A DNA stretch of 64,000 bases, taken from positions 25,854 through 89,853 of the forward strand of contig JBBDWM010000024.1 of the NCBI GenBank assembly GCA_040902845.1, read 5' to 3'. The position numbers and the translations under genes are program-made. The notes under the pieces were generated by a model that searched no databases, had not been told where the DNA came from, and worked only from the letters and a program-made list of their open reading frames with translations. Source of the DNA: Acidimicrobiia bacterium (GTDB lineage Bacteria > Actinomycetota > Acidimicrobiia > Spongiisociales > ZC4RG35). Of this stretch, positions 16,972 to 29,395 are shown in pieces; the first letter of the stretch is position 1, and each line of letters begins with the position of its first letter.

Positions 16972-17105
16972 GGGTACTTGGTACTCAGTACTGGGTACTT
17001 AGACCAGACCGAGTCGCAATACGCAATACGCAATACGCAAAACCAAAACGCAATACGCAAAACGCAAAACGGTGAACGGTCAACGGCGAACGGTCAACGG
17101 TCTCG
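16972..17105. repeat. Composite 7-bp-period tandem repeat tract: (NGGTACT)x4, (CGCAATA)x3, CGCAAAA variants, (ACGGYSA)x5, between divergent lgt and a membrane protein gene
   Basis: It reads GGGTACTTGGTACTCAGTACTGGGTACT ... CGCAATACGCAATACGCAATACGCAAAACCAAAACGCAATACGCAAAACGCAAAACGGTGAACGGTCAACGGCGAACGGTCAACGGTC. The strict heptad periodicity shares motifs with loci 2671-2780 and 43272-43331. Confidence 0.75.
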
Positions 17106-17143
17106 GCCAAAGTCGGCCGGCATTGGAGTTAAAGTCCCGCAAC

Positions 17144-18298
17144 GTGAGCGATCTGCTGCCGACTGTGGCTGCCGCCTTGAACACACCTGAGAGTCTCATC
17201 CGACGATCCGCCGCTGCCCGGGCCGCCGCCAACGGCACGACGATCGACGAAGTGCTGGCTGCATGGGCCGGAGGCGCCCCAATCGTCACCGTGACACCGG
17301 CACCGCCCCCGGAAGCCGCCGCGGAGCCCACCCCGTCGCCTGCACCCGTGGCCGCCGCCTCCGTGATCGAGGTCCCAGCCCCGGTTGCCGTGGCCGTCGA
17401 ACCCGCACCGGAGCCGGTGGCGCCCATCGAACCGGTTCCCCTCTCCACGAGAATCCGGAGTGCCAGCAGGGTCGGCGCCTGGACAGGGTCAGTCCTCGGC
17501 CTCACCGGTTTCCTGATCGCTACCACCTGGTGGGCGCAGAACGCCACCGTCATCGGTGGGGGCCCTTACACCCCGGTGATTCAGGCCACATCGACCTCGG
17601 TCATCATCGGTGTCGCCCTGGTCAGCATCGTCTTTGGCGCCATCACCGCCGGGATATCCCGCGCCTCGGCAGCGTGGGCCCATCCCGGAATGCAACTCAG
17701 AAACTCCGCGGCTTCTACCGGGTGGTTGGGCGCCCTGATCGGCTTGCCTCTCGGTGTCGGGGCGGCGGCAATTTTGACGAGTGGCTTCGGGACGCCAGTT
17801 GAGGGTATCGAAGGCATGGTGCAACTCCCCGTGCTCCCGACGCTTGCGGTGATGCTTCTCGGTGGGGCTGTTCTAGGTGGGATCACCGCCGCCGCGACCC
17901 AGTCGGTGGCGGTCCCGGTAGCCGTGGCCGGTGACTCCGATGAGATCGCCAAGGTAAAGAGTCGTCTGGGGGGAGCACTGACGATTCCCGCCGTGGGGCT
18001 GCTCATCCTCGTGTCGCTGGTGCTCCCCTTTGCCTGGGCCCTTATCGAGTCGAGTCACCTGACGTCAGGAGGAGCGGCCGTGGTGGCGATAATCACCGCC
18101 CTCGGTATCCTCGGGTTCGCCTCCCTCGCCGGAACCCGGCCCAATGTCAAGATCAGCCTCGGCGAAGCCATGGTCGCCCTGATCGGGATCGCCACCGTCC
18201 TCCTAATCGTCTTCGCGGTATTGCTCGCTCGAAGCGCTGGAGAGGGACAAGAAGAGGAAACAGGCGAAGAGGCCGCAGTGGCTCTCATCCTCGAGTAG
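17144..18298 (+). CDS. Hypothetical membrane protein with Pro/Ala-rich linker (track start 17072 lies inside the repeat tract; GTG 17144 is more plausible)
   Basis: It has an N-terminal soluble domain, a PAPPPEAAAEPTPSPAPVAA linker, then at least 6 TM helices. The track's N-terminus MNGQRRTVNG is a translation of the ACGGT repeats. Confidence 0.5.
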   Translation: MSDLLPTVAAALNTPESLIRRSAAARAAANGTTIDEVLAAWAGGAPIVTVTPAPPPEAAAEPTPSPAPVAAASVIEVPAPVAVAVEPAPEPVAPIEPVPLSTRIRSASRVGAWTGSVLGLTGFLIATTWWAQNATVIGGGPYTPVIQATSTSVIIGVALVSIVFGAITAGISRASAAWAHPGMQLRNSAASTGWLGALIGLPLGVGAAAILTSGFGTPVEGIEGMVQLPVLPTLAVMLLGGAVLGGITAAATQSVAVPVAVAGDSDEIAKVKSRLGGALTIPAVGLLILVSLVLPFAWALIESSHLTSGGAAVVAIITALGILGFASLAGTRPNVKISLGEAMVALIGIATVLLIVFAVLLARSAGEGQEEETGEEAAVALILE

Positions 18299-20408: not shown

Positions 20409-20738
20409 CTATCCGTCGGCCAGGCTCAATGCGAACCGGACGTTATCCACCAACTCCCAACCGACCAATATCGGCTGGCCGCTGAGTCGATGCTCACGAA
20501 GGTGGGGGAGCGCAAATTCGTAGTCACCGTCGTCCACTGGAAGAAACAGCCACTCCTCACCCTCGACCAGCACCGAGAACGAGATCACCTGCTCCAGGCT
20601 TCCTTCGACGGAGATGACAACCCCCCGAGCGGTGCCCGAGGTTTGGGTGCAGGCCATGACCGCCACGAGCGCCACGATTCCGGTCAATCGGGCCGCGGAA
20701 TTCAGAAGGTGGCGGTCGGCGACCTTGGCCGCGGTCAA
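20409..20738 (-). CDS. Small lipoprotein (~109 aa), TTG start overlapping the ctaG stop (TTGA); hidden inside spurious track ORF 20409-21056
   Basis: In frame within the track ORF is ...(M)TAAKVADRHLLNSAARLTGIVALVAVMAC|TQTSG (a signal peptide plus lipobox), then GVVISVEGSLEQVISFSVLVEGEEWLFLPVDDGDYEFALPHLREHRL.... GC3 is about 80%, against about 61% for the competing plus-strand ORF 20367-20894. Confidence 0.45.
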   Translation of the reverse strand: MTAAKVADRHLLNSAARLTGIVALVAVMACTQTSGTARGVVISVEGSLEQVISFSVLVEGEEWLFLPVDDGDYEFALPHLREHRLSGQPILVGWELVDNVRFALSLADG

Positions 20739-21544
20739 CCCGCCCTCAGCGACGATTCCAACCTCTCCCAGTCCCGCTCCTGCTTGGTCCAGCGGAACCA
20801 GATCACCGCAATGGTCCCCCACAACAAAAATCCTCCTCCCAGCTTCATGATGACGCCGGCGATCGTCTGGTCGGCCACCGCGGTGAGGCCGTAGGCGAGG
20901 GCAGCGTCGCCATAGACCGGGTAGATCGGGACCGAGGAAAAGGTGAGAAACGAAGCCGGGACGGTAGGAAGCAGGGACTGGAGGAACAGATAGAGCATCT
21001 GGGCGGGCGGGGTAAGACGCGGGATCGCCGCGGTAGGCGAGAAGATCGGGAGCCACATGAGGATCGCCGCACCGAACAGCCAGGCGTGGACAAAGAAATG
21101 AATCGACCGACTGGTCAGCATCCAGCCCACCAGTTCGGGCCAGTGGATCAGGATAAACGTGGCGTTGAAGATGACGAACGCCGCCACCGGTCGTGCCAGG
21201 GGCCGCAACAGTCGCGCCACCTTCGGGTGTCCGAATGTGGCGTCACCCAGCCAGCGCGGACAGCCCCGAAGCAGCAAAGGCGGCACCACCAGGGCAAGGA
21301 CCATGTGCTCGATCATGTGCAGGGTGAACAAGGCAGTCTCCCCGATGTCGTGGATCGGCCACCCGGAGACCACCAAGAGCAGAGCGAGGGCCCCATACCA
21401 CTGCCAGCGCTGGCCCGCCGTCGCCCGGGGCGCTTCGGGGGCCATCAGCGGCCGGAGACGCTTGTCGGCGTACCAGTACCCGAAACCGAGGACGAAGACC
21501 AACAGCCACAGGTCGAAGTGTGGGTGCCAGGGAGGCAACGGCAT
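20735..21544 (-). CDS. ctaG: Cytochrome c oxidase caa3-type assembly factor CtaG (Caa3_CtaG family)
   Basis: The 269-aa multi-TM protein has the HMIEHMVLALVVPPLLL motif. Confidence 0.75.
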   Translation of the reverse strand: MPLPPWHPHFDLWLLVFVLGFGYWYADKRLRPLMAPEAPRATAGQRWQWYGALALLLVVSGWPIHDIGETALFTLHMIEHMVLALVVPPLLLRGCPRWLGDATFGHPKVARLLRPLARPVAAFVIFNATFILIHWPELVGWMLTSRSIHFFVHAWLFGAAILMWLPIFSPTAAIPRLTPPAQMLYLFLQSLLPTVPASFLTFSSVPIYPVYGDAALAYGLTAVADQTIAGVIMKLGGGFLLWGTIAVIWFRWTKQERDWERLESSLRAG

Positions 21545-21852
21545 CAGGATCCCCTGATGACCAGGACTCCCAGGGCGGCCAGGACCACGGTGTAGAGAGA
21601 AGCGGCCAGCACGAAGCCGCCGGTGAAGAAGCGGCTCAGGGTCGACTTCTCGTACCGGAGATGCATATAGAAGGCCACGACGATCACGAACTTCAGCGTG
21701 GCCAGGATGATGAGTGAGATGGCGTTCAGGGCGCCCAAGTCGTAGGACTTGTTCACGTAGTACATACCCACCTCGATGGCGGTGAGTACCCCCAACAGCA
21801 CCGCGATCTTCCAGTATTGGGCCGGTGTCGGGTGGTGATGCTCCGCGGTCAT
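21544..21852 (-). CDS. Cytochrome c oxidase subunit IV (prokaryotic CoxIV)
   Basis: The 102-aa protein has two TM helices and sits immediately downstream of ctaE. Confidence 0.7.
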   Translation of the reverse strand: MTAEHHHPTPAQYWKIAVLLGVLTAIEVGMYYVNKSYDLGALNAISLIILATLKFVIVVAFYMHLRYEKSTLSRFFTGGFVLAASLYTVVLAALGVLVIRGS

Positions 21853-22478
21853 GCGGGCGGCACCGACAACAGATAGACGACGGTGAAGATGACGATCCAG
21901 ATGATGTCGACGAAGTGCCAGTAGAGGCCGACCAGTTCGAGGTTCATCCCGTGTTTCTCACTGAGCCCACCCGGACGTCGTGAGATGCCCCACAGGGAGA
22001 GAAGCATGATCACACCGATCGCCACATGGGTGCCGTGAAACCCGGTGAGGACATAGAAGGCGGAGGCCGCCGGGTTGGTGGTGAGCTTCATGTCGTTGTT
22101 GACGATGAATTCGGTGAACTCGAAGACCTGGCCGCCGAGGAACACCGCGCCCAGGGCCGCAGTGGCGAACAACCAGGTCCTGGTCCCGTTGATGTCGGCT
22201 CGCGTCAGGGCGTTGTGGGCGAGGACCATCGTCAACGAGCTCATCAACAGGACGAACGAACTGACCGAAGTGAATGGTATGTCGTAGATCTCGGAGGGAT
22301 AGGTGCCGGCAAATCCCGCCCGGTTCGAATACAGCAGGTAGTTCGAGATCAGGGCGCCGAAGAACAGGAACTCCGAGCTGAGGAACAGCCACATCCCGAG
22401 TTTGCGGTTGTCGACACCTGTCGACTCGCGTTCGGGATGATCCAATGGAGCCTCGTGGAGGATCTCAGCCATAGCCAC
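21849..22478 (-). CDS. ctaE: Cytochrome c oxidase subunit III
   Basis: The 209-aa protein reads GMWLFLSSEFLFFGALI ... LYWHFVDIIWIVIF. Confidence 0.9.
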   Translation of the reverse strand: MAMAEILHEAPLDHPERESTGVDNRKLGMWLFLSSEFLFFGALISNYLLYSNRAGFAGTYPSEIYDIPFTSVSSFVLLMSSLTMVLAHNALTRADINGTRTWLFATAALGAVFLGGQVFEFTEFIVNNDMKLTTNPAASAFYVLTGFHGTHVAIGVIMLLSLWGISRRPGGLSEKHGMNLELVGLYWHFVDIIWIVIFTVVYLLSVPPA

Positions 22479-24507
22479 CCTCGTGCTTGTCAGAGTGCTC
22501 CCCGTCGTCGTGTTGGACGAGATGCGGTTCCTCGAGCGGCTCGATCGCCCACCCGACCACCGAGATGAGGCCGATGATGACGCCGACGAAGATCATGGCC
22601 TTGCCCCAGAGTGCCTCGTGGTAGATGATCCCGTAGAAGATGGTCGGGAAAGCGGTGGCCATGAAAAAGGGGAAATATGAGGGATTGGGGAGGTGGATCG
22701 GCGAGGCCGGGTTGAGCTGATCATGCTCGATCTTGGCCACGATCTCATCCGCATCCGGCTTGCGCACCGCCCGCCCATCCGGGTCTTCGTCGTACTTGAG
22801 ATGCCAGAAATGGTCGAGACGGGTAACCACCGGGGGCACCGCGAAGTTGTACTCGGGCGTGGGGTTGGGACTCATCCACTCAACGGTCCTCGCGTCCCAT
22901 GGGTCGAGGCCGGAGAGCTGGCCGCGGCGCTTGCTGGTGACCCAGTTGACGATGAAGATCGCAATGGAGAGGGCGATGATGAAGGCACCCACGGTCACCG
23001 CCAGGTTCCACGGCTCGAGACCGGTCTCCGGTGCGTACTTCCAGGTTCGACGAACCATCCCCTGAAGACCCAACCAGTGCATTGGGGCGAAGGTGAGATT
23101 GAACCCGAGCAACTGGAGCCAGAAATGGGTCTTGCCCAGTTTCTCGTTCATCACCCTCCCGGTGAGCTTGGGGAACCAGTAATAGAGGCCGCCGAAGAGC
23201 CCGAAGATGGCGCCGCCGAACAGCACATAATGGAAGTGGGCCACGATGTAATAGGTGTCTGTCTGCTGCCAGTCCGAGGGGACGACGGCGTGGGTCACCC
23301 CGGAGAGCCCGCCGATGGTGAACATGGCCAAAAACCCGATGGCGAACAGCATCGAGGTGTTGAGCCGTATTCGACCCATCCACATCGTCCCCAGCCAGTT
23401 GAAGATCTTGATCCCGGTGGGAATGGCGATGGTCATCGTCGACAGGCCGAAAGCCGCCTGGGCCACCGGGGTGATTCCCGAGGCGAACATGTGATGGGCC
23501 CACACCCCGAAGCCGAGGAAACCGATGGCGGCGCCGGCAAAGACCACCGCCGAATAGCCGAAGAGGGGTTTGCGCGAGAAGGTGGGGAGGATCTCGGAAA
23601 CCATCCCCATCGCAGGCAGGACCAGGATGTAGACCTCGGGGTGGCCGAACAACCAGAACAGGTGTTGCCACAGAATTGGATCTCCCCCGCCAACGGGGGC
23701 GAAGAACAACGACCCGAACTGACGGTCGAACGTCACCATGAACAGCGCTACCGCGATGATCGGGATTGAGAACAGCAGAAGGAACGCCACAACCATCGAC
23801 ATCCAGACAAACACCGGCATTCGGAGCAGGCGCATCCCCTTGGCCCGCAGGTTGAGGATGGTGACGATGAAGTTGACCGCAGAGACCAAGGAGGCAAGGC
23901 CCAGGATCTGCACCCCCAACGCCCAGTAGTCCATAGCGGTGCCCGGCGAGTAGAGCGGCCCGGCGTTGGGCTGGTAGCCGAACCATCCCCCGTCAGGTGA
24001 GTTGGCAAGGAAGTTGAAGCTGCCGGGTCCTCCCCCGAGAGCCAGGTTGCCGTCGACACCTCCGATGCCATCGACCCCGACCGGGGCCAGAGAGGTGCCG
24101 AAGATGAAGGTCGAATAGAGGAAGATCCCGCCGAAGAGGAAGACCCACCAGGAGAGGGCGTTCAACCTGGGGAAGGCAACGTCCCGCGCTCCGATCATCA
24201 GCGGGAGCAGGTAATTCATGAATGCAGCCCCGGTCGGCATCACGAAGAGAAAGATCATCGTGGTGCCATGCATGGTGAACAGGGCGTTGTAGGCGCCGGC
24301 GGTGAGGAACTCGCTGTTGGCCTGGGCAAGTTGGATCCGAAGCAGCAAGGCCTCGACACCGCCGATGATGAAGAAGGTGAAGGCCGCGTAGCCGTACATG
24401 ATGCCGATCCGCTTGTGATCGACGGTCGTTATCCACGACCAGATACCGGTCTTCGCCGATGGACGGCGAAAGATGGTGGTCTGCGGTCGCTCGGCGGTGG
24501 CGGTCAT
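22465..24507 (-). CDS. ctaD: Cytochrome c oxidase subunit I, with a ~100-aa C-terminal extension carrying two extra TM helices
   Basis: It has GHPEVYILVLPAMG and the conserved heme/CuB histidines. The 680-aa length is about 100 aa longer than a typical CtaD. Confidence 0.9.
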   Translation of the reverse strand: MTATAERPQTTIFRRPSAKTGIWSWITTVDHKRIGIMYGYAAFTFFIIGGVEALLLRIQLAQANSEFLTAGAYNALFTMHGTTMIFLFVMPTGAAFMNYLLPLMIGARDVAFPRLNALSWWVFLFGGIFLYSTFIFGTSLAPVGVDGIGGVDGNLALGGGPGSFNFLANSPDGGWFGYQPNAGPLYSPGTAMDYWALGVQILGLASLVSAVNFIVTILNLRAKGMRLLRMPVFVWMSMVVAFLLLFSIPIIAVALFMVTFDRQFGSLFFAPVGGGDPILWQHLFWLFGHPEVYILVLPAMGMVSEILPTFSRKPLFGYSAVVFAGAAIGFLGFGVWAHHMFASGITPVAQAAFGLSTMTIAIPTGIKIFNWLGTMWMGRIRLNTSMLFAIGFLAMFTIGGLSGVTHAVVPSDWQQTDTYYIVAHFHYVLFGGAIFGLFGGLYYWFPKLTGRVMNEKLGKTHFWLQLLGFNLTFAPMHWLGLQGMVRRTWKYAPETGLEPWNLAVTVGAFIIALSIAIFIVNWVTSKRRGQLSGLDPWDARTVEWMSPNPTPEYNFAVPPVVTRLDHFWHLKYDEDPDGRAVRKPDADEIVAKIEHDQLNPASPIHLPNPSYFPFFMATAFPTIFYGIIYHEALWGKAMIFVGVIIGLISVVGWAIEPLEEPHLVQHDDGEHSDKHEGGYG

Positions 24508-25559
24508 TCGTTGCTCTCCAACCAGATGATCAGATCGTCGATCTCCTGAGCGGTTAGGGCCAGGTTGGGCATGAAGCTACCGGGTTTCACCGAGGGTGGA
24601 TCCGCCAGCCACTCCTTGAGCGCCCCCTCCCGGGTCTCGCCCTCACCGGGCAGGGTGGCTCCGGCAAACACGTTGCGTGAGGCGAAATGGGTGAGCTCGG
24701 GACCGGAGAAGGCGTCGTCGGGAACGATGTTGGGATTGGTGTCAAAACGCACGGTGTGACACTGGATGCATCCCTTGGCCAGGTACACCTGATAGCCGGC
24801 GTACTCGGGACTGCCTTCGGTGGGGAGCGGGGTCGTATCGGCCTGATCGGCCAGCCACCCCTCGTACTCCGCCGGGGGCAGCGCGAGCACCCGGGCCCGC
24901 ATCAACGAGTGGGAGAGGCCACAGAACTCGGCGCACTGACCCCAGAACTCCCCTGGCTCGTCTGCTTGGAGCCGCAACTGGGTGGTCTGGCCCGGAATCA
25001 GATAGCGCTTCCCGTTGAGGGCCGGAACCCAGAAGTTGTGGATCACATCCTCGGACGTCATGTTGGCGCAGACCTCCTGGCCCGCCGGAATCACCATCAC
25101 GTTGGCCGTCGCCACCCCGGCTTCGGGGTAGCGGTACTCGAACCACCATTGATGCCCGATCACCTCGATCTCGATCGCGCCCTCACCGCACTCGGTCAGA
25201 TCGAAGACGGCCGCCGTGGTTGGGACTGCAATCCCGGCCAGGATCAAGGCGGGGATCACTGTCCACAGCACCTCGAGTTTCGGGCTTCCATGAAGCTGCT
25301 TAGCCTCCTTGGCGCCCTCCCGGTCCCGATAGAGAAAGACGGCGACCAGGATCGCCCCCTGGACGAGGATGAAGACCGCGGTTGCGATCCAGAAAACCGG
25401 CCAGAACAGCTCGTCTTCGCGACGGGAGAAAGGCCCCTTCGGGTCCAGCGCCGTCATCGGGGCATCCTCGATACCGATCAGCGAACAGGCGCTGAGAACC
25501 ATGGCGGCCCCGACCAAAATGCCGAGGCGTGCAAGACGTTGACGGGACGGGGCCATCGG
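24504..25559 (-). CDS. ctaC: Cytochrome c oxidase subunit II with fused C-terminal cytochrome c domain (caa3-type)
   Basis: It has the CuA site HNFWVPALNGK...CAEFCGLSHSLM and a C-terminal CIQCH heme-c motif. The likely start is MAPSRQRLARLGILVGAAMVLSAC. The track's upstream 40 aa come from the palindromic repeat. Confidence 0.85.
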   Translation of the reverse strand, partial: PMAPSRQRLARLGILVGAAMVLSACSLIGIEDAPMTALDPKGPFSRREDELFWPVFWIATAVFILVQGAILVAVFLYRDREGAKEAKQLHGSPKLEVLWTVIPALILAGIAVPTTAAVFDLTECGEGAIEIEVIGHQWWFEYRYPEAGVATANVMVIPAGQEVCANMTSEDVIHNFWVPALNGKRYLIPGQTTQLRLQADEPGEFWGQCAEFCGLSHSLMRARVLALPPAEYEGWLADQADTTPLPTEGSPEYAGYQVYLAKGCIQCHTVRFDTNPNIVPDDAFSGPELTHFASRNVFAGATLPGEGETREGALKEWLADPPSVKPGSFMPNLALTAQEIDDLIIWLESNE

Positions 25560-25631
25560 TTCGGCATCATACGGACCTCGCCAACGAGCGACCAACTTCT
25601 GAGCTGTGCCCAGAATTCCGGGGTGAGGCCC

Positions 25632-25686
25632 CCCGTAATTGAGACACAGAGGGGTCACATGCGGACCTGAGGGTCCCAATTACGGG
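25632..25686. repeat. 55-bp palindromic element, copy B (reverse orientation, ~85% identical to 11836-11890), inside the cta operon between the lipoprotein stop and the ctaC start
   Basis: It reads CCCGTAATTGAGACACAGAGGGGTCACATGCGGACCTGAGGGTCCCAATTACGGG. Its reverse complement aligns base-for-base with copy A, with an imperfect stem. Confidence 0.7.
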
Positions 25687-25695
25687 AAGGACCCC

Positions 25696-26529
25696 TCAGG
25701 GGGCCACTGCGTCGATCGCCGAGCTCAGTTCCTCGTCACGGACAGCTCCCTCGAAGGAGGCGGTGACGGTCCCGGAACTGTCGACTACGAACACCCAGGG
25801 CTCCGAGGGCAGACCCCATTCACTGACCGCCGGCACCGCGGTCAACTGGCTCTGGTCGGTCACGGTGAGGTCCTCGTAGATCTCGACGTGGATGAAAGCG
25901 ACGCCGGGGTAGCTCTCGCGGAGGTTCTTGACCTGATCCAGAATGGGCCCACAGGTTGCACTCGCGCAGAACCCCGGGGTGGCGAAAACGATCACCACAG
26001 GATCCCCGCTCATCACCGCTTGGGCGACAGACACTTCGTACATCGCCGGGTCGGGGTCAGGATCCGAGCTGATCTCTGCGAGGTCGGGGTAATCGGCCGA
26101 AATCCGGGTCTCCGAGGCCGGGGCAGTGTCACCGCGCTCGATGACACCAGGATCGTCGACCGCCACCAACCCCATCGGGCCCGCGGTGTCGAATCCCTCG
26201 GCGTCGAGCGTCACCTGGTAGGTGGCTGCCTCGGGGATCATCATCCGGGCCACATAGAGACCTCTGACGTCTTCGACGGTCCACATGAACTCGGTCGGAT
26301 AGGTCTCGATGGGGGCGCCGTTTTGGTCACGAAGGGTGACCGTGGCTGGGTGATCGGGGGAGGCCAGATACTCGTTGGTCTCCTGGTCGATCAACGCGAA
26401 CATGATTCGCTGCTCGCCCACCCCAATGCCGGCTTGCGAGGAAGCGATGATGGCAAACGGAGTCACCGCCTCTGAGGAGCAGGCCCCTACGACAAGTAGC
26501 ACGCCAGCCAGGACCAGGCCACGTCTCAT
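25696..26529 (-). CDS. Lipoprotein with C-terminal thioredoxin-like domain (atypical CxxxxCGP motif); possible CuA/oxidase maturation factor (TlpA/Sco-like)
   Basis: It has the signal peptide plus lipobox MRRGLVLAGVLLVVGAC|SS and the C-terminal stretch VVIVFATPGFCASATCGPILDQ...PWVFVVDSSGTV. It overlaps the ctaB stop by 4 nt and sits directly upstream of ctaC. Confidence 0.55.
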   Translation of the reverse strand: MRRGLVLAGVLLVVGACSSEAVTPFAIIASSQAGIGVGEQRIMFALIDQETNEYLASPDHPATVTLRDQNGAPIETYPTEFMWTVEDVRGLYVARMMIPEAATYQVTLDAEGFDTAGPMGLVAVDDPGVIERGDTAPASETRISADYPDLAEISSDPDPDPAMYEVSVAQAVMSGDPVVIVFATPGFCASATCGPILDQVKNLRESYPGVAFIHVEIYEDLTVTDQSQLTAVPAVSEWGLPSEPWVFVVDSSGTVTASFEGAVRDEELSSAIDAVAP

Positions 26530-27449
26530 CGGATCAGCACGTCCAGCATCACCGAAGCGAATAGCGCAGCGAGATACACCGTCGATGTGGTGAAAAGACG
26601 CATGGCCTCATCCGGGTGGAGATAGACCCTCCAGCAGTCCCAAAGAAACCATGCGCCGAGGCCGATTGCGGCCAGCAGGTAGATCCAGCTCATCCCGGCC
26701 ACCGGAACCAGGAGCAGGGTGACGCCGACCATCACGGCCGTGTAGAGGAGCATCTTCCTTGTCGTTGCCTCCACCCCAACGACCACCGGGAGCATCGGGA
26801 TCCCGGCCCGGGCATAGTCCTCCCGATAGCGGATGGCCAGGGCCCAGAAATGAGGGGGGGTCCAGTAGAACACGATGAAGAACAGAACCCAAGCCGGCAA
26901 GGCGACCCCACCCGTGATCGCCGCCCAACCGACCAATACCGGAGCCGCCCCGGCTGCTCCCCCGATGACGATGTTCTGAGTCGTCGACCGTTTCAGCGCC
27001 ACCGTGTAGACGAACACATAGAAGAGAAGTGCTGCCGTTGAGATGGCGGCGGCCAGCAGGTTGGTTGTGACCCAGAGCCATGCGAACCCTGCGATGCCGA
27101 GGCAAATGCCGAAGACGAGGGCGTTGGTCGGGGCCACCTCGTGTTGGGCCAGCGGCCGACCTTTGGTGCGTCGCATCACCGCGTCGATGTCACGATCGAA
27201 GTAGCTGTTCAGCGCGTTGGCGCCGCCTGCAGACAGTGTGCCCCCGATCAGGGTGGTGATCAGGATCCATGCTCCCGGCCAGGTCCCGGCCGCCAGCACC
27301 ATCGCAGGCACCGTGGTGATGAGGAGCAATTCGATGATGCGGGGCTTGGTCAGCGCCAGGTAAGCCATGACAGTCGACCGGGTGCGTTGGGCGGGCACCG
27401 ACATGACGACGTCAGGTGTGACCGGCGATCCTGGAAGATCAGTCGACAT
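26526..27449 (-). CDS. ctaB: Protoheme IX farnesyltransferase (heme O synthase)
   Basis: The 307-aa UbiA-family protein reads NSYFDRDIDAVMRRTKGRPL ... WTPPHFWALA. Confidence 0.9.
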   Translation of the reverse strand: MSTDLPGSPVTPDVVMSVPAQRTRSTVMAYLALTKPRIIELLLITTVPAMVLAAGTWPGAWILITTLIGGTLSAGGANALNSYFDRDIDAVMRRTKGRPLAQHEVAPTNALVFGICLGIAGFAWLWVTTNLLAAAISTAALLFYVFVYTVALKRSTTQNIVIGGAAGAAPVLVGWAAITGGVALPAWVLFFIVFYWTPPHFWALAIRYREDYARAGIPMLPVVVGVEATTRKMLLYTAVMVGVTLLLVPVAGMSWIYLLAAIGLGAWFLWDCWRVYLHPDEAMRLFTTSTVYLAALFASVMLDVLIR

Positions 27450-27609
27450 CGGTCGGCTCCTGGATCGAGTCTTCCTTCAGTTTTCTTTCTTCGGCCGCTC
27501 TCCGCGCACGGCGCTCCGCCCAGCGCAACGAGAAGATCGCGGCAAGCGCCGGGATCACAAAGATCCCAACTTCATCGATCCCCCAATAGTGGGCAAATAT
27601 GAGCATCAT
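27439..27609 (-). CDS. 56-aa single-TM microprotein between the membrane protein and ctaB (ATGA-coupled upstream, overlaps the ctaB start by 11 nt)
   Basis: It reads MMLIFAHYWGIDEVGIFVIPALAAIFSLRWAERRARRAAEERKLKEDSIQEPTDVD, with one TM helix plus a basic/acidic tail. It forms the tail of the otherwise R-rich spurious track ORF 27439-28485. Confidence 0.4.
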   Translation of the reverse strand: MMLIFAHYWGIDEVGIFVIPALAAIFSLRWAERRARRAAEERKLKEDSIQEPTDVD

Positions 27610-28964
27610 CCGGAAAGGATCAACAACCCGAGTGTGGTGAGAGCCACCATAAGGAGAAGCATCGCGTATTGGGAACGGACCGCGCCCGGTCCGAAGTCTC
27701 CAAGAGCGCGGTCGTGGGCCAGCACCACACCTGTCACATGCCCGGTCACGATCACAGCCATCTGCACGTACCAGATGGGCTCGCTGGTAGTGATGAAGAA
27801 GTCCACCTTGCGGTCGGCTGTCCCGAACAGGTCCCATCCCAGGGCGAAGGGATCGGAAACGGCCGCGATCAACTGCTGGCCCTCGAAAATGATCAAGGTG
27901 AGGTAGTGGGCCACCGCGTAGGCAAGGGCGATTGGAACCAGGGTGTGGGCGAAGCGGGCTGAAACGCGGCGAGCGGTCCAGTCGCCGCCCACCATCCGTG
28001 CCGCCGCCCACGAGGCAACCCAATAAGCAAGACCGATCATTGCGACCGATCCCAACAGAAGGAGGGTCGCTCCCAGCATCGAGTCCGCCATCGCACCGAA
28101 AGCAGACTTGAACCAGGCCGTGCCCGAGGCGCCGTCGTAGGTCACGGTTCCGATCGCCACGCAAACCAAGGCCGCCAGACCGCGCCATTCGGGCAAGACC
28201 GTCAACGCCCGGAGCCAGCCGCGCCACACCAACCGACCGTCCGTACGACGACCCAAGGGTGACAGCGAAGAGATCAACCGGTTGTACGGGGTGAAGGCAT
28301 CGAACACGGTCAAGCCCGTCTCCCGACCGGCGTAAGCCATGGCCGCGAATAGACCGACTGTGTAGACCAGGGCCGCCAATCCGAGAGCTACGGCTGATCC
28401 CGAGCTGTGATTGACCAGCTCCAACCAGGTGAAGGCGAGGAGCAGTGCCGCGGCTGGGAGGACACCGGTGGCATCGAGCAGCCACACCCGCTCGGCCTTA
28501 CCGACTTTGAAGGTGCGCCCCATGGTCCGCCAGGGATTGAGATCGGTGTACCAGTCACCGAGGACCGCGCCAACAAACGGCACCACCAGCCAAAAGACCA
28601 CCCACAACAAGACCGGGGCGATGGAGGGACGAGTGGGATCAGTCGTCAGACCGAAGGCCGCCACCGCTAGTTGCCCGATGACCAGCAGAAGACCGATCAC
28701 TCCCAACACCGGAAGCAGGCCCCTGCGAGGAATGGTCAACCGTGTCGGGTTGTGGCGGGGCCCATCCTGGAGCCTTGGCTCGGGCCAAAGGACCGCAAGG
28801 GCAACGAAGCTGACGACGATGACGACCCCGGCCGCGGCGATAAAGTAGGACACGGGGACCGGCAGGTCGAGACGCCCTCCGATTCCGTGTGCCAGGGCCG
28901 TCCCCGAGTTGAGAAAGACAAGGAGCAAGGCCCCGCCGACAATGCCGGCGCGACGTCTCATCAA
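27606..28964 (-). CDS. Integral membrane protein of unknown function (cleavable-signal-like N-terminus ...TALA|HGIGG, then ~10 TM helices) in the cta/heme operon
   Basis: The 452-aa protein is strongly hydrophobic. It is ATGA-coupled to the upstream lipoprotein and to the downstream microprotein. It does not match CtaA (no Cys pair). Confidence 0.55.
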   Translation of the reverse strand: MMRRRAGIVGGALLLVFLNSGTALAHGIGGRLDLPVPVSYFIAAAGVVIVVSFVALAVLWPEPRLQDGPRHNPTRLTIPRRGLLPVLGVIGLLLVIGQLAVAAFGLTTDPTRPSIAPVLLWVVFWLVVPFVGAVLGDWYTDLNPWRTMGRTFKVGKAERVWLLDATGVLPAAALLLAFTWLELVNHSSGSAVALGLAALVYTVGLFAAMAYAGRETGLTVFDAFTPYNRLISSLSPLGRRTDGRLVWRGWLRALTVLPEWRGLAALVCVAIGTVTYDGASGTAWFKSAFGAMADSMLGATLLLLGSVAMIGLAYWVASWAAARMVGGDWTARRVSARFAHTLVPIALAYAVAHYLTLIIFEGQQLIAAVSDPFALGWDLFGTADRKVDFFITTSEPIWYVQMAVIVTGHVTGVVLAHDRALGDFGPGAVRSQYAMLLLMVALTTLGLLILSG

Positions 28965-29395
28965 GGAGTTACTTGGATCTCGAACAACGGGAGCTGGCTC
29001 TCCTCGAGTTCGACTTCGAAGATGCCCTGAGCATCCGCCTCGAAAGAGATCTCGACCGGGACGCCGGGCTCGGCCTCGTACATGACGTCGTATCCGTGGA
29101 CATGGATCTCGTCGGCGACATCGGTGAGCACCGTGATCTCCACCTGATCGCCAAGTGCGTATTCGAAGAGATCCGGGCCGTCGACCACGCCACCGGCCAC
29201 GGTGACATCGATCTCACGGGTAGTCGTTGTGATCTCAGGAACGCTCGACGGGGGCGCGACCTCGGTGCTGGTGGTCCCGGCGAGCGTCGTGGTCGTGGCG
29301 GGGGTCGATGAGGCTTCAGTGGTAGACGTGCTGGAGGTGTTGTTGCAGGCGGCAATCAGTACCGCTATCAACCCGATCAGGAGCACGGTTCGCAT
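28961..29395 (-). CDS. Lipoprotein with Ser/Thr-rich linker and a C-terminal beta-rich domain (HxH motif; possible metal-binding)
   Basis: It has a lipobox (MRTVLLIGLIAVLIAAC|NN), a TSSTSTTEASSTPATTTT linker, and the domain ...VADEIHVHGYDVMYEAEPGVPVEISFEADAQGIFEVELE. Confidence 0.55.
   Translation of the reverse strand: MRTVLLIGLIAVLIAACNNTSSTSTTEASSTPATTTTLAGTTSTEVAPPSSVPEITTTTREIDVTVAGGVVDGPDLFEYALGDQVEITVLTDVADEIHVHGYDVMYEAEPGVPVEISFEADAQGIFEVELEESQLPLFEIQVTP

What the first reader, a model, noticed from the sequence alone, without database searches (positions are those of the whole stretch)
27439..29395. Three uncharacterised membrane-associated genes heading the heme O / caa3 operon: HxH lipoprotein, 452-aa membrane protein, 56-aa TM microprotein
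Upstream of ctaB and coupled by ATGA overlaps are three unannotated proteins. The first is a lipoprotein with an O-glycosylation-type Thr-rich linker and a beta domain carrying an IHVHGYD motif. The second is a 452-aa polytopic protein whose signal-peptidase site would expose an N-terminal His (ALA|HGIGG), reminiscent of copper-binding His-brace or CopC-like N-termini. The third is a 56-aa single-TM peptide whose stop region overlaps the ctaB start. None matches CtaA/CtaM/Surf1. Together with ctaG this looks like an expanded, partly novel assembly apparatus, possibly for copper delivery.
Basis: partly seen in the sequence, partly recalled or inferred. Interest (0 to 1): 0.5.

Follow-up and report, generated by a model that had tools for sequence, protein, structure and literature searches.

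The report
Uncharacterised copper-linked trio heading caa3 operon
Three real, conserved genes at the head of a cytochrome oxidase operon encode a cupredoxin-fold lipoprotein, a ten-helix membrane protein of a large unnamed family that begins with an invariant histidine, and a tiny membrane peptide; together they look like an undescribed copper-handling module, but no experiment yet shows what they do.

The parts
28961..29395 (-). 144-aa lipoprotein: signal peptide with lipobox (LIAAC), Thr/Ser-rich linker, and a C-terminal Cys-less cupredoxin-fold domain (residues ~62-144) with invariant H98-x-H100-G-Y-D103 and G124-x-F-E127-V-E129-L-E131
27606..28961 (-). 451-aa polytopic membrane protein (alternative TTG start at 28964). 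Predicted cleaved signal peptide (…TALA|H25), 10 TM helices, N-terminus and C-terminus outside. Conserved H25, E181, D276, H352, Q362, S369-D-P, GW.LFGT, H408, H416. Member of a large unnamed family.
   Evidence: conservation. AF2 pLDDT 88.8, pTM 0.88. K+R distribution gives the topology. No PDB sequence or fold relative. Homology to Fer4_5/NapH-type variants.
27439..27609 (-). 56-aa single-pass membrane peptide: N-terminal (F/L)-A-H7-x-x-G-I-D-E motif, TM helix, basic cytoplasmic stretch, variable acidic tail. ATGA-coupled to the membrane gene and overlapping ctaB by 11 nt.
   Evidence: Equivalent ORFs after the membrane gene in 15+ Actinomycetota loci. pN/pS 0.3-0.5. 64 database homologues, His7 invariant.
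26526..27449 (-). ctaB, heme O synthase (context: the next gene of the operon)
   Evidence: PF01040 E 6e-66; NCBIfam NF003349 heme o synthase E 1.3e-119
25696..26529 (-). 277-aa lipoprotein with a C-terminal thioredoxin-like region and a C-x4-C motif (FCASATCGP). Its homologues lie next to the membrane-protein gene in other lineages, so it is probably part of the same functional set.
   Evidence: NCBI name 'thioredoxin family protein'. Weak thioredoxin matches in the PDB. No Pfam hit. Homologues adjacent to family members in L026, L061, L089, L090.
20735..25679 (-). Rest of the operon: ctaC (24504..25679, COX2 + cytochrome c), ctaD (22465..24507), ctaE (21849..22478), COX4_pro-type subunit (21544..21852), Caa3_CtaG (20735..21544)
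   Evidence: ORFs. One-to-one phmmer matches to the genes of L001, L129 and L131, whose products carry these Pfam families.

Best explanation
The three genes form a self-contained envelope cassette that handles copper for membrane or periplasmic copper enzymes. In this Acidimicrobiia clade the cassette has been built into the heme O synthase / caa3 oxidase operon.

Proposed working, in order:
1. The lipid-anchored cupredoxin-fold protein binds a copper ion at a Cys-less His/carboxylate site (HxH plus ExE).
2. It passes the metal to the outer face of the ten-helix membrane protein. After signal-peptide cleavage, the amino-terminal histidine of that protein, together with E181, D276 and the SDP/GW.LFGT loop, forms an acceptor site.
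3. A line of histidines in helices 8 and 9 (H352, H408, H416) carries the ion into or across the membrane.
4. The 56-residue peptide is a one-helix subunit that adds an outward-facing histidine.
5. The thioredoxin-like lipoprotein and CtaG encoded downstream then finish CuA/CuB assembly.

Shown: gene reality, coupling, conservation, cupredoxin fold, topology, invariant residues, the gene partnership, and the genomic contexts.
Inferred: copper as the ligand, the hand-over, the direction of transport, and the role of the peptide.
For: Reality and coupling: overlapping stops and starts. The same ten-gene order is found in four Acidimicrobiia contigs.

Partnership: a cupredoxin-family gene ends within 400 nt of the membrane gene in 45 of 88 loci with visible upstream DNA. 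This breaks down as Actinomycetota 18/27, Chloroflexota 14/25 and Proteobacteria 12/27. No other neighbour recurs.

Fold and site of the lipoprotein:
- Invariant HxHGYD and FEVELE motifs. Other phyla carry F.(I/V)E.H instead of FEVELE.
- The HxHG region weakly matches the copper-ligand motif of two-domain laccases.

Membrane protein: the +1 His is invariant after an AxA site, as are E181, D276, H352, H408 and H416, in 29 and in 71 diverse members. Topology is N-out with 10 TM helices. Summed mean K+R is 18.8 in the odd (cytoplasmic) loops against 4.5 in the outer segments.

Copper-linked contexts elsewhere:
- sigC, cupredoxin gene and membrane gene beside copper monooxygenase pmoCAB on two mycobacterial plasmids. 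SigC prevents copper starvation in M. tuberculosis (PMC7924339).
- CopC, a metal-sensitive regulator, HCO subunit III, TlpA and CtaG in M. gallinarum.
- PCu(A)C in Sulfitobacter.
- A multicopper oxidase in Solirubrobacteraceae.
- CopZ-like, CopC-like and ArsR genes in Acidimicrobiia or Actinomycetes loci.
- CuA-type cupredoxins flanking or fused to family members in Chloroflexota and Bacteroidota.
- A Met/His-rich N-terminus in the Poribacteria member.
- Heavy-metal P-type ATPase directly downstream in Haloferax, and about 1.5 kb upstream on the opposite strand in Haloarcula.

Small peptide: conserved position, invariant His7, purifying selection.
Against: - No metal-binding or transport experiment exists for any family member.
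- His, Asp and Glu ligands fit Cu(II) but equally Fe, Zn or Ni. The nearest structural neighbours include the iron-uptake cupredoxins FtrB and EfeO.
- In Rhizobiales and Roseobacteraceae the membrane gene lacks a cupredoxin partner and sits beside nicotinate-catabolism and Liv-type ABC genes. The family is therefore not uniformly copper-associated.
- The metal specificity of the haloarchaeal ATPases is unknown.
- The scaffold descends from, or is sister to, NapH/MauN-type electron-transfer proteins. This points to redox chemistry rather than transport.
- Some GenBank entries call close relatives 'fenitrothion hydrolase'. I could not trace that name to data.
- I could not inspect model coordinates, so the spatial clustering of the conserved residues is inferred from topology only.
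- Signal-peptide cleavage is predicted, not shown.
Confidence: 0.5

Rival explanations
1. Redox module. The membrane protein is an electron-transfer protein like its NapH/MauN/NosR/CcoG relatives. It would act as a cupric reductase, or as a quinol- or cytoplasm-linked electron donor, with the cupredoxin as its periplasmic redox partner. The conserved transmembrane histidines would hold a redox cofactor (copper or heme) in place of the lost Fe-S clusters.
For: - Family members L048, L098, L015 and L021 carry CxxCP, FCRYxCP and CxxCxxCxxxCP motifs. They hit Pfam Fer4_5 and NCBIfam NapH/MauN at E 5e-11 to 4e-7.
- The window protein aligns its GDWYTDLNPW onto their VWCYACPW.
- Some variants have fused CuA-type cupredoxins or a GltD-like NAD(P)H flavoprotein insert.
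- In Anaerolineae the gene is flanked by a CuA-type cupredoxin and a COX2 + cytochrome c protein without a COX1 gene.
- From established knowledge, CcoG is a cupric reductase needed for cbb3 oxidase assembly.
Against: - The window protein has one cysteine and none of the Fe-S motifs, so the family's known cofactor is gone.
- Its cupredoxin partner lacks the Cys/Met ligands of electron-transfer copper sites.
- The Fe-S variants with fused cupredoxin have lost H352, H408 and H416. The two features look like alternatives rather than one mechanism.
- No heme-binding four-His pattern is present.
Confidence: 0.2
2. Uptake or handling of another metal, most likely iron. The cupredoxin would be an FtrB/EfeO-type domain and the membrane protein a permease, placed next to heme O synthase because of heme or iron supply.
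For: - The ligand set is His/Glu/Asp without Cys or Met.
- Two 'iron transporter' genes lie beside the Haloarcula homologue.
- A DtxR-like repressor lies nearby in a Solirubrobacteraceae locus.
Against: - Named neighbours are mostly copper-related: pmoCAB, CopC, PCu(A)C, multicopper oxidase, CuA proteins, CtaG and TlpA.
- There are no Ftr1/EfeU REXXE motifs and no Pfam hit to iron permeases.
- A Met/His-rich N-terminus, typical of copper proteins, occurs in one member.
Confidence: 0.1
3. Structural subunits. The three proteins are extra, clade-specific subunits or assembly scaffolds of the caa3 oxidase complex itself, with no metal-trafficking role.
For: Tight translational coupling to ctaB and a shared operon with ctaCDEF and ctaG in four contigs. 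Small single-helix peptides are common oxidase subunits (established knowledge).
Against: - The cassette occurs without any cta gene nearby in most loci, including close Acidimicrobiia relatives.
- It also occurs beside unrelated copper enzymes and in archaea.
Confidence: 0.07
4. Membrane-bound hydrolase. The family is an enzyme of the 'fenitrothion hydrolase' (FedA) type, and the conserved His/Asp/Glu residues form a catalytic metal centre.
For: GenBank names three close Acidimicrobiia relatives 'fenitrothion hydrolase'. The label FedA is used for a Burkholderia cenocepacia gene in PMC3417382.
Against: - No data behind the name could be found in the library.
- No NCBIfam model supports it.
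- All 60+ plasmid homologues are 'hypothetical protein'.
- The conserved cupredoxin partnership and the metal-gene contexts are not explained by a pesticide hydrolase.
Confidence: 0.04

Closest known systems
NapH / MauN / NosR / CcoG membrane ferredoxin-type proteins (Pfam Fer4_5, NCBIfam TIGR02163)
   Same: The region of helices 3-5 and the loops between them is homologous through intermediates. Family members L048, L098 and L015 match both the window-family profile (E 1e-20 to 1e-75) and NapH/MauN (E 5e-11 to 4e-7). These proteins serve periplasmic redox or copper enzymes, and CcoG serves oxidase copper supply (established knowledge).
   Different: The window protein has lost every CxxCP and ferredoxin cysteine motif. 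It gives no direct hit to any of these models. It has five extra C-terminal helices with the SDPFG.GWDLFGT loop, a cleaved signal peptide with His at +1, and a transmembrane His triad.
CopC-CopD and YcnI-YcnJ copper uptake pairs
   Same: The logic matches: a small extracytoplasmic beta-sandwich metal binder is encoded next to a polytopic membrane protein, and a mature N-terminal histidine is a candidate Cu(II) ligand. Both are linked to copper supply for respiration (PMC8689200, PMC13344008; abstracts seen).
   Different: There is no sequence relationship: no Pfam CopC, CopD or YcnI hit. Here the N-terminal His is on the membrane protein, not on the soluble partner. The partner is a cupredoxin, not a CopC fold.
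Cupredoxin-fold metal binders without a blue-copper site: nitrosocyanin, CupA, FtrB/EfeO-type Cup domains, Pfam Cupredoxin_1
   Different: The window protein does not reach any Pfam threshold. It has no Cys or Met ligands. Its invariant HxHGYD...FEVELE pattern is not the ligand set of any of these proteins.
Known oxidase copper-assembly factors: Sco1/SenC, PCu(A)C, TlpA, Cox11, Caa3_CtaG, CtiP
   Same: The operon position and the presumed purpose are the same. Caa3_CtaG and a thioredoxin-like lipoprotein are encoded in the same operon.
   Different: None of the three proteins matches these families. hhalign of the membrane family against Caa3_CtaG gives probability 0.2%.
Multicopper oxidase domain 1 (HxHG copper-ligand motif of two-domain laccases)
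   Same: The motif (E/D)-x-H-V/L-H-G-x-D on a cupredoxin strand gives weak profile matches, E ~1e-3, over ~30 residues.
   Different: It is a single 80-residue domain, with no other MCO motifs (no HCH) and no Pfam Cu-oxidase hit for the window protein.

Membership tests
Cupredoxin fold / Pfam Cupredoxin_1 (PF13473) | Greek-key beta-sandwich of the cupredoxin type | tested here: met
Cupredoxin fold / Pfam Cupredoxin_1 (PF13473) | Sequence match above the Pfam gathering score | tested here: not met
   No Cupredoxin_1 hit for the window protein at E<=1. A Rubrobacter orthologue scores 39.9 against a cut-off of 27.
Type 1 (blue) or CuA copper site | Cys (plus His, His, Met) ligands in the C-terminal loop | tested here: not met
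   The folded domain has no Cys. The invariant residues are H98, H100, D103, E127, E129 and E131. Chloroflexota homologues do carry CxxxCxxxHxxM.
Bacterial lipoprotein | Signal peptide ending in a lipobox [LVI][ASTVI][GAS]C | tested here: met
   MRTVLLIGLIAVLIAAC.... The Cys is conserved in most close homologues. Lipidation itself is not testable here.
Histidine-brace-type N-terminal copper site (as in CopC, LPMO, PmoB) | Histidine as first residue of the mature protein after signal-peptide cleavage | tested here: met
   A-x-A|H is invariant in 29 of 29 diverse members. His is present in 64 of 64 members that have the region.
Histidine-brace-type N-terminal copper site (as in CopC, LPMO, PmoB) | Actual cleavage, and Cu coordination by the N-terminal amine plus imidazole | not testable with these tools
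   Needs N-terminal sequencing, EPR or a crystal structure.
NapH/MauN family (TIGR02163) / Fer4_5 | Membrane scaffold homologous to NapH | tested here: inconclusive
   No direct hit for the window protein. The link is transitive: L048 scores 253 bits to the family profile and 42.6 bits, E 5e-11, to NapH/MauN, far below that model's cut-off of 213. The aligned regions overlap.
NapH/MauN family (TIGR02163) / Fer4_5 | CxxCP motifs and two ferredoxin-type 4-Cys clusters | tested here: not met
   The window protein has a single Cys. TDLNP replaces CYACP, and the FCRYxCP segment is absent.
CopD (PF05425) / CopC (PF04234) / YcnI (DUF1775) | Sequence match to the family model | tested here: not met
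   No Pfam hit at E<=1 for any of the three proteins.
Caa3_CtaG (PF09678) | Profile similarity to the operon's own CtaG and its homologues | tested here: not met
   hhalign probability 0.24%, E 0.25.
CtaA/COX15, CtaM, Surf1, Sco1/SenC, PCu(A)C | Sequence match to the family model | tested here: not met
   No Pfam or NCBIfam hit.
Any solved membrane-protein fold | Structural similarity over most of the chain | tested here: not met

The most novel reading that the evidence does not exclude
The 452-aa protein founds a new, widespread class of prokaryotic membrane copper transporters or insertases. The class derives from the NapH scaffold by loss of its iron-sulfur clusters. It uses a histidine at its own processed N-terminus as the entry site. 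It works with a dedicated Cys-less cupredoxin chaperone and, in Actinomycetota, a one-helix His-bearing subunit. It would supply copper to cytochrome oxidases, copper monooxygenases and multicopper oxidases in Actinomycetota, Chloroflexota, Proteobacteria and haloarchaea.
Probability: 0.3. Interest if true: 0.8.

Novelty: new variant of a known kind. Interest (0 to 1): 0.65.

Why it matters
How copper reaches respiratory oxidases and other envelope copper enzymes is only partly known, and the known routes (CopCD/YcnJ, CcoA, Sco, PCuAC, CtaG, CcoG) are missing or incomplete in many phyla. This family has thousands of sequence clusters but no Pfam, NCBIfam or PDB entry. Its fixed cupredoxin partner, and its repeated placement beside copper enzymes and copper regulators, make it a concrete and testable candidate for a missing route. 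Carriers include Haloferax volcanii, Marinobacter lipolyticus and hydrocarbon-oxidising mycobacteria, which I expect to be workable hosts for genetics. It also documents an evolutionary step: a NapH-type iron-sulfur membrane protein turned into a cysteine-free, histidine-lined one.

Tried and rejected
- Pfam and NCBIfam scans of the three proteins returned only noise.
- The AlphaFold-database libraries were not available, so no annotated structural neighbours could be obtained.
I replaced it with a degenerate DNA pattern for DPxxxxW[DN]LFGT. This biases the loci towards members that keep the motif.
- Relationship to Caa3_CtaG was rejected by hhalign.
- The 'fenitrothion hydrolase' label was followed through four papers and two plasmid searches without finding a sequence or data. 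It remains unresolved.
- Promoter and terminator scans and Rfam on the region were uninformative.
- A Pfam census of the other window genes lists only the 25 commonest families. It cannot say whether CtaA, Sco or PCuAC are encoded elsewhere in the window.
- A Pfam census of 150 neighbours in other genomes showed no universal partner beyond cupredoxin, COX2 and cytochrome c, PCYCGC and ArsR.
Full report
**What is in the sequence**

On the minus strand, three ORFs run head to tail into ctaB:

| ORF (window coordinates) | Product |
|---|---|
| 28961..29395 | 144 aa |
| 27606..28961 | 451 aa from ATG (452 aa from the TTG at 28964) |
| 27439..27609 | 56 aa |

- The first junction is TGATG, or TTGA with the TTG start. 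The second is ATGA. The 56-aa ORF overlaps the ctaB start by 11 nt.
- Downstream in the same direction lie ctaB (PF01040, E 6e-66; NCBIfam heme o synthase, E 1e-119), a 277-aa lipoprotein, ctaC, ctaD, ctaE, a COX4_pro-type subunit and Caa3_CtaG.
- These downstream genes are identified by one-to-one matches to annotated contigs.
- The window derives from an Acidimicrobiia metagenome-assembled genome. GenBank calls the 451-aa and 56-aa products hypothetical, and the 277-aa product a thioredoxin family protein.
- None of the three proteins has a meaningful Pfam or NCBIfam hit.

**The lipoprotein**

- It has a lipobox (LIAAC), a Thr/Ser-rich linker and an ~83-residue domain.
- Thirty-two homologues share invariant H98, H100, G101, D103 and G124, F126-E-V-E-L-E131.
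- The AlphaFold model of the domain is very confident, with pLDDT ~98.
- The domain has no cysteine, so it is not a blue-copper or CuA protein.
- A Rubrobacter orthologue passes the Pfam Cupredoxin_1 threshold.
- The HxHG region weakly resembles the copper-ligand motif of two-domain laccases.
- Across phyla the first motif is kept (HxHGYD). The second motif is F.(I/V)E.H in most lineages and FEVELE in the Acidimicrobiia type. Anaerolineae homologues carry a true CuA-type CxxxCxxxHxxM instead.

**The membrane protein**

- It belongs to a very large family: 4037 hits among the 90%-identity clusters scored, and 3373 representatives of 50%-identity clusters at E<=0.001.
- A degenerate DNA pattern for its most conserved loop retrieved 120 genome loci, essentially all true members. 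They come from Actinomycetota, Chloroflexota, Alpha-, Beta- and Gammaproteobacteria, Bacteroidota, Gemmatimonadota, Patescibacteria and an archaeon.
- tblastn adds mycobacterial, rhizobial, roseobacter and many haloarchaeal plasmids, all annotated as hypothetical.
- Lysine and arginine counts place the odd-numbered loops inside. This gives ten helices with both termini outside.
- The histidine right after the predicted A-x-A cleavage site is invariant in 29 of 29 diverse members. It is present in 64 of 64 members that include the region.
- Also conserved are E181, D276 and the S369-D-P...GW.LFGT loop, all at the outer face. H352 and H408 lie within helices 8 and 9, and H416 lies at the inner end of helix 9.

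**An unexpected relationship**

- Some family members carry CxxCP, FCRYxCP and CxxCxxCxxxCP motifs.
- These members hit Pfam Fer4_5 and the NCBIfam NapH/MauN ferredoxin-type model, at E 5e-11 to 4e-7.
- In a pairwise alignment, the window protein's GDWYTDLNPW lines up with VWCYACPW of the Poribacteria member, and the FCRYxCP segment is simply missing.
- The window protein has one cysteine. It is therefore a cysteine-less relative of the NapH/MauN/NosR/CcoG scaffold, extended by five helices. It cannot hold the iron-sulfur clusters that define those proteins.
- Family variants are informative:
  - fused CuA-type cupredoxins in Anaerolineales and Bacteroidota;
  - a GltD-like flavoprotein insert in a Dehalococcoidia member;
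  - a Met/His-rich N-terminus in the Poribacteria member;
  - a ~400-residue extracytoplasmic C-terminal domain in some Alphaproteobacteria.

**The 56-residue peptide**

- An ORF of 48-78 codons (most of them 48-61) starts within a few bases of the membrane gene's stop in at least fifteen Actinomycetota loci.
- These ORFs share the pattern (L/I)-A-H-x-G-G, a hydrophobic helix, and then a run of arginines.
- Sixty-four database homologues exist, called independently by several pipelines. His7 is invariant, and A6, G10, D12, E13 and P20 are nearly so.
- Pairwise pN/pS is 0.3-0.5 even with saturated synonymous sites, and the N-terminal two-thirds is much better conserved than the tail.
- It is a real gene. 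The positive-inside rule puts the His-bearing N-terminus outside.

**Synteny**

- The full order is lipoprotein, membrane protein, peptide, ctaB, thioredoxin-like protein, ctaC, ctaD, ctaE, ctaF, ctaG. It recurs in contigs whose membrane protein is 72-78% identical to the window's.
- A 69%-identical relative keeps the trio but is followed by cell-division genes. Most other Acidimicrobiia loci lack ctaB nearby.
- Across 88 loci with visible upstream DNA, a cupredoxin-family gene ends within 400 nt of the membrane gene in 45. This is a lower bound, because the profile is narrow and fused cupredoxins are not counted.
- Clustering of neighbours and a Pfam census of 150 of them found no other recurrent partner. 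The exception is the COX2 + cytochrome c, PCYCGC and ArsR genes of particular clades.
The genes are not generally syntenic with cta genes, but they are a conserved cassette in their own right.

**Why copper**

Where neighbours are named they are repeatedly copper-related:

| Lineage or record | Neighbours of the membrane gene |
|---|---|
| Mycobacterium dioxanotrophicus and Mycolicibacterium chubuense NBB4 plasmids | sigC, cupredoxin gene, membrane gene, next to copper membrane monooxygenase genes |
| M. gallinarum plasmid | CopC, a metal-sensitive regulator, heme-copper oxidase subunit III, TlpA and CtaG around the pair |
| Sulfitobacter | PCu(A)C, divergently transcribed |
| Solirubrobacteraceae | a multicopper oxidase upstream |
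| Other Actinomycetota loci | CopZ-like, CopC-like and ArsR genes |
| Gaiellales | Caa3_CtaG right after the pair |
| Haloferax volcanii and H. mediterranei | heavy-metal P-type ATPase directly downstream |
| Haloarcula marismortui | heavy-metal P-type ATPase ~1.5 kb upstream on the opposite strand |

- SigC is reported to prevent copper starvation in M. tuberculosis (PMC7924339).
- The metal specificity of the haloarchaeal ATPases is not established.
- Homologues of the operon's thioredoxin-like lipoprotein sit next to the membrane gene in Solirubrobacteraceae and other loci.
- Against a uniform copper role, rhizobial and roseobacter members lack the cupredoxin and lie beside nicotinate-catabolism and Liv-type ABC genes.

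**Mechanism**

The reading I favour (about 0.5) is a copper-handling cassette:

1. The anchored cupredoxin captures copper at its His/carboxylate site.
2. It hands the metal to the processed N-terminal histidine and outer acidic residues of the membrane protein.
3. The histidines of helices 8 and 9 conduct the metal into or across the membrane.
4. The peptide is an accessory subunit.
5. In this clade the cassette feeds caa3 assembly, together with the thioredoxin-like protein and CtaG.

Only the anatomy, conservation and contexts are shown. The ligand, the direction and the hand-over are inferred.

The main rival (about 0.2) is that the protein keeps the family's redox role, as a cupric reductase or an electron donor to the cupredoxin, with a different cofactor. 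Lesser rivals are iron or other metal handling, an oxidase-subunit role, and the untraceable 'fenitrothion hydrolase' label.

**Novelty**

I found no paper in the held library describing the family. No curated model or solved structure exists.

It fails the defining tests for CopC, CopD, YcnI, Sco, PCuAC, CtaG, NapH and CcoG, while working, as far as can be told, in the same area. I therefore rate it a new variant of a known kind: accessory metal-handling modules of copper enzymes. There is a real chance that it is a new transporter class.

Noticed in passing
L098, L104, L049, L015, L021, L048 (genome loci): Family variants that keep NapH-type CxxCP and ferredoxin cysteine motifs. Four have an N-terminal fused CuA-type cupredoxin. 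L021 has an inserted GltD-like NAD(P)H flavoprotein domain. L048 has a Met/His-rich N-terminus. They look like complete membrane electron-transfer or copper-reducing enzymes and deserve their own study.
   Followed up: partly
window 25696..26529 (-): A 277-aa lipoprotein lies between ctaB and ctaC. It has a thioredoxin-like C-terminal region and an unusual C-x4-C motif (FCASATCGP), and no Pfam hit. Homologues lie directly next to the membrane-protein gene in Solirubrobacteraceae and other loci (L026, L061, L089, L090).
   Followed up: partly
window 17072..18295 (+): A 408-aa Ala/Pro-rich polytopic membrane protein has homologues lying 0.1-1.3 kb downstream of the membrane-protein gene in three other Acidimicrobiia loci (L081, L097, L031). 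This suggests a further recurrent neighbour in this class.
   Followed up: partly
L122 and L125 (Mycobacterium dioxanotrophicus and Mycolicibacterium chubuense NBB4 plasmids): The cupredoxin gene and membrane gene follow sigC and lie beside copper membrane monooxygenase (pmoCAB-type) genes. In L122 the next gene is a zf-HC2 protein, and a 353-aa His-rich protein lies upstream.
   Followed up: partly
L033, L087, L067, L068, L045 and others (Chloroflexota and Bacteroidota loci): PCYCGC-motif proteins (PF13798, unknown function) recur two genes upstream of the membrane gene (5 of 150 neighbours). The arrangement is PCYCGC protein, CuA-type cupredoxin, membrane protein, then COX2 + cytochrome c, with no COX1 gene adjacent.
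   Followed up: partly
window 22465..24507 (-): CtaD is 680 aa, which from general knowledge is long for a subunit I. The C-terminal ~100 residues include a hydrophobic stretch that looks like two extra helices, and an acidic His-rich tail. The relatives are 670-698 aa. This may be a fused small subunit.
   Followed up: no
L025, L042, L075 (Alphaproteobacteria): ~900-aa forms of the family carry a ~400-residue C-terminal extracytoplasmic domain. It has only a weak SBP_bac_5-like match (E 5e-4, below threshold).
   Followed up: partly
L039 and L066 (Marinobacter lipolyticus, Rhodophyticola sp.): A ~400-aa secreted protein precedes the cupredoxin gene and membrane gene in both genomes. Its only Pfam match is a sub-threshold hit to SBP56, the selenium-binding-protein family. 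From general knowledge, SBP56-type methanethiol oxidases are copper enzymes.
   Followed up: no
L128 and L136 (Haloferax mediterranei pHM500, H. volcanii pHV4); L124 (Haloarcula marismortui): In haloarchaea the membrane gene is preceded by an 85-88-aa protein with a C2H2-like zinc-finger motif and one TM helix, instead of a cupredoxin. In both Haloferax species a heavy-metal P-type ATPase and a HiPIP gene follow.
   Followed up: partly
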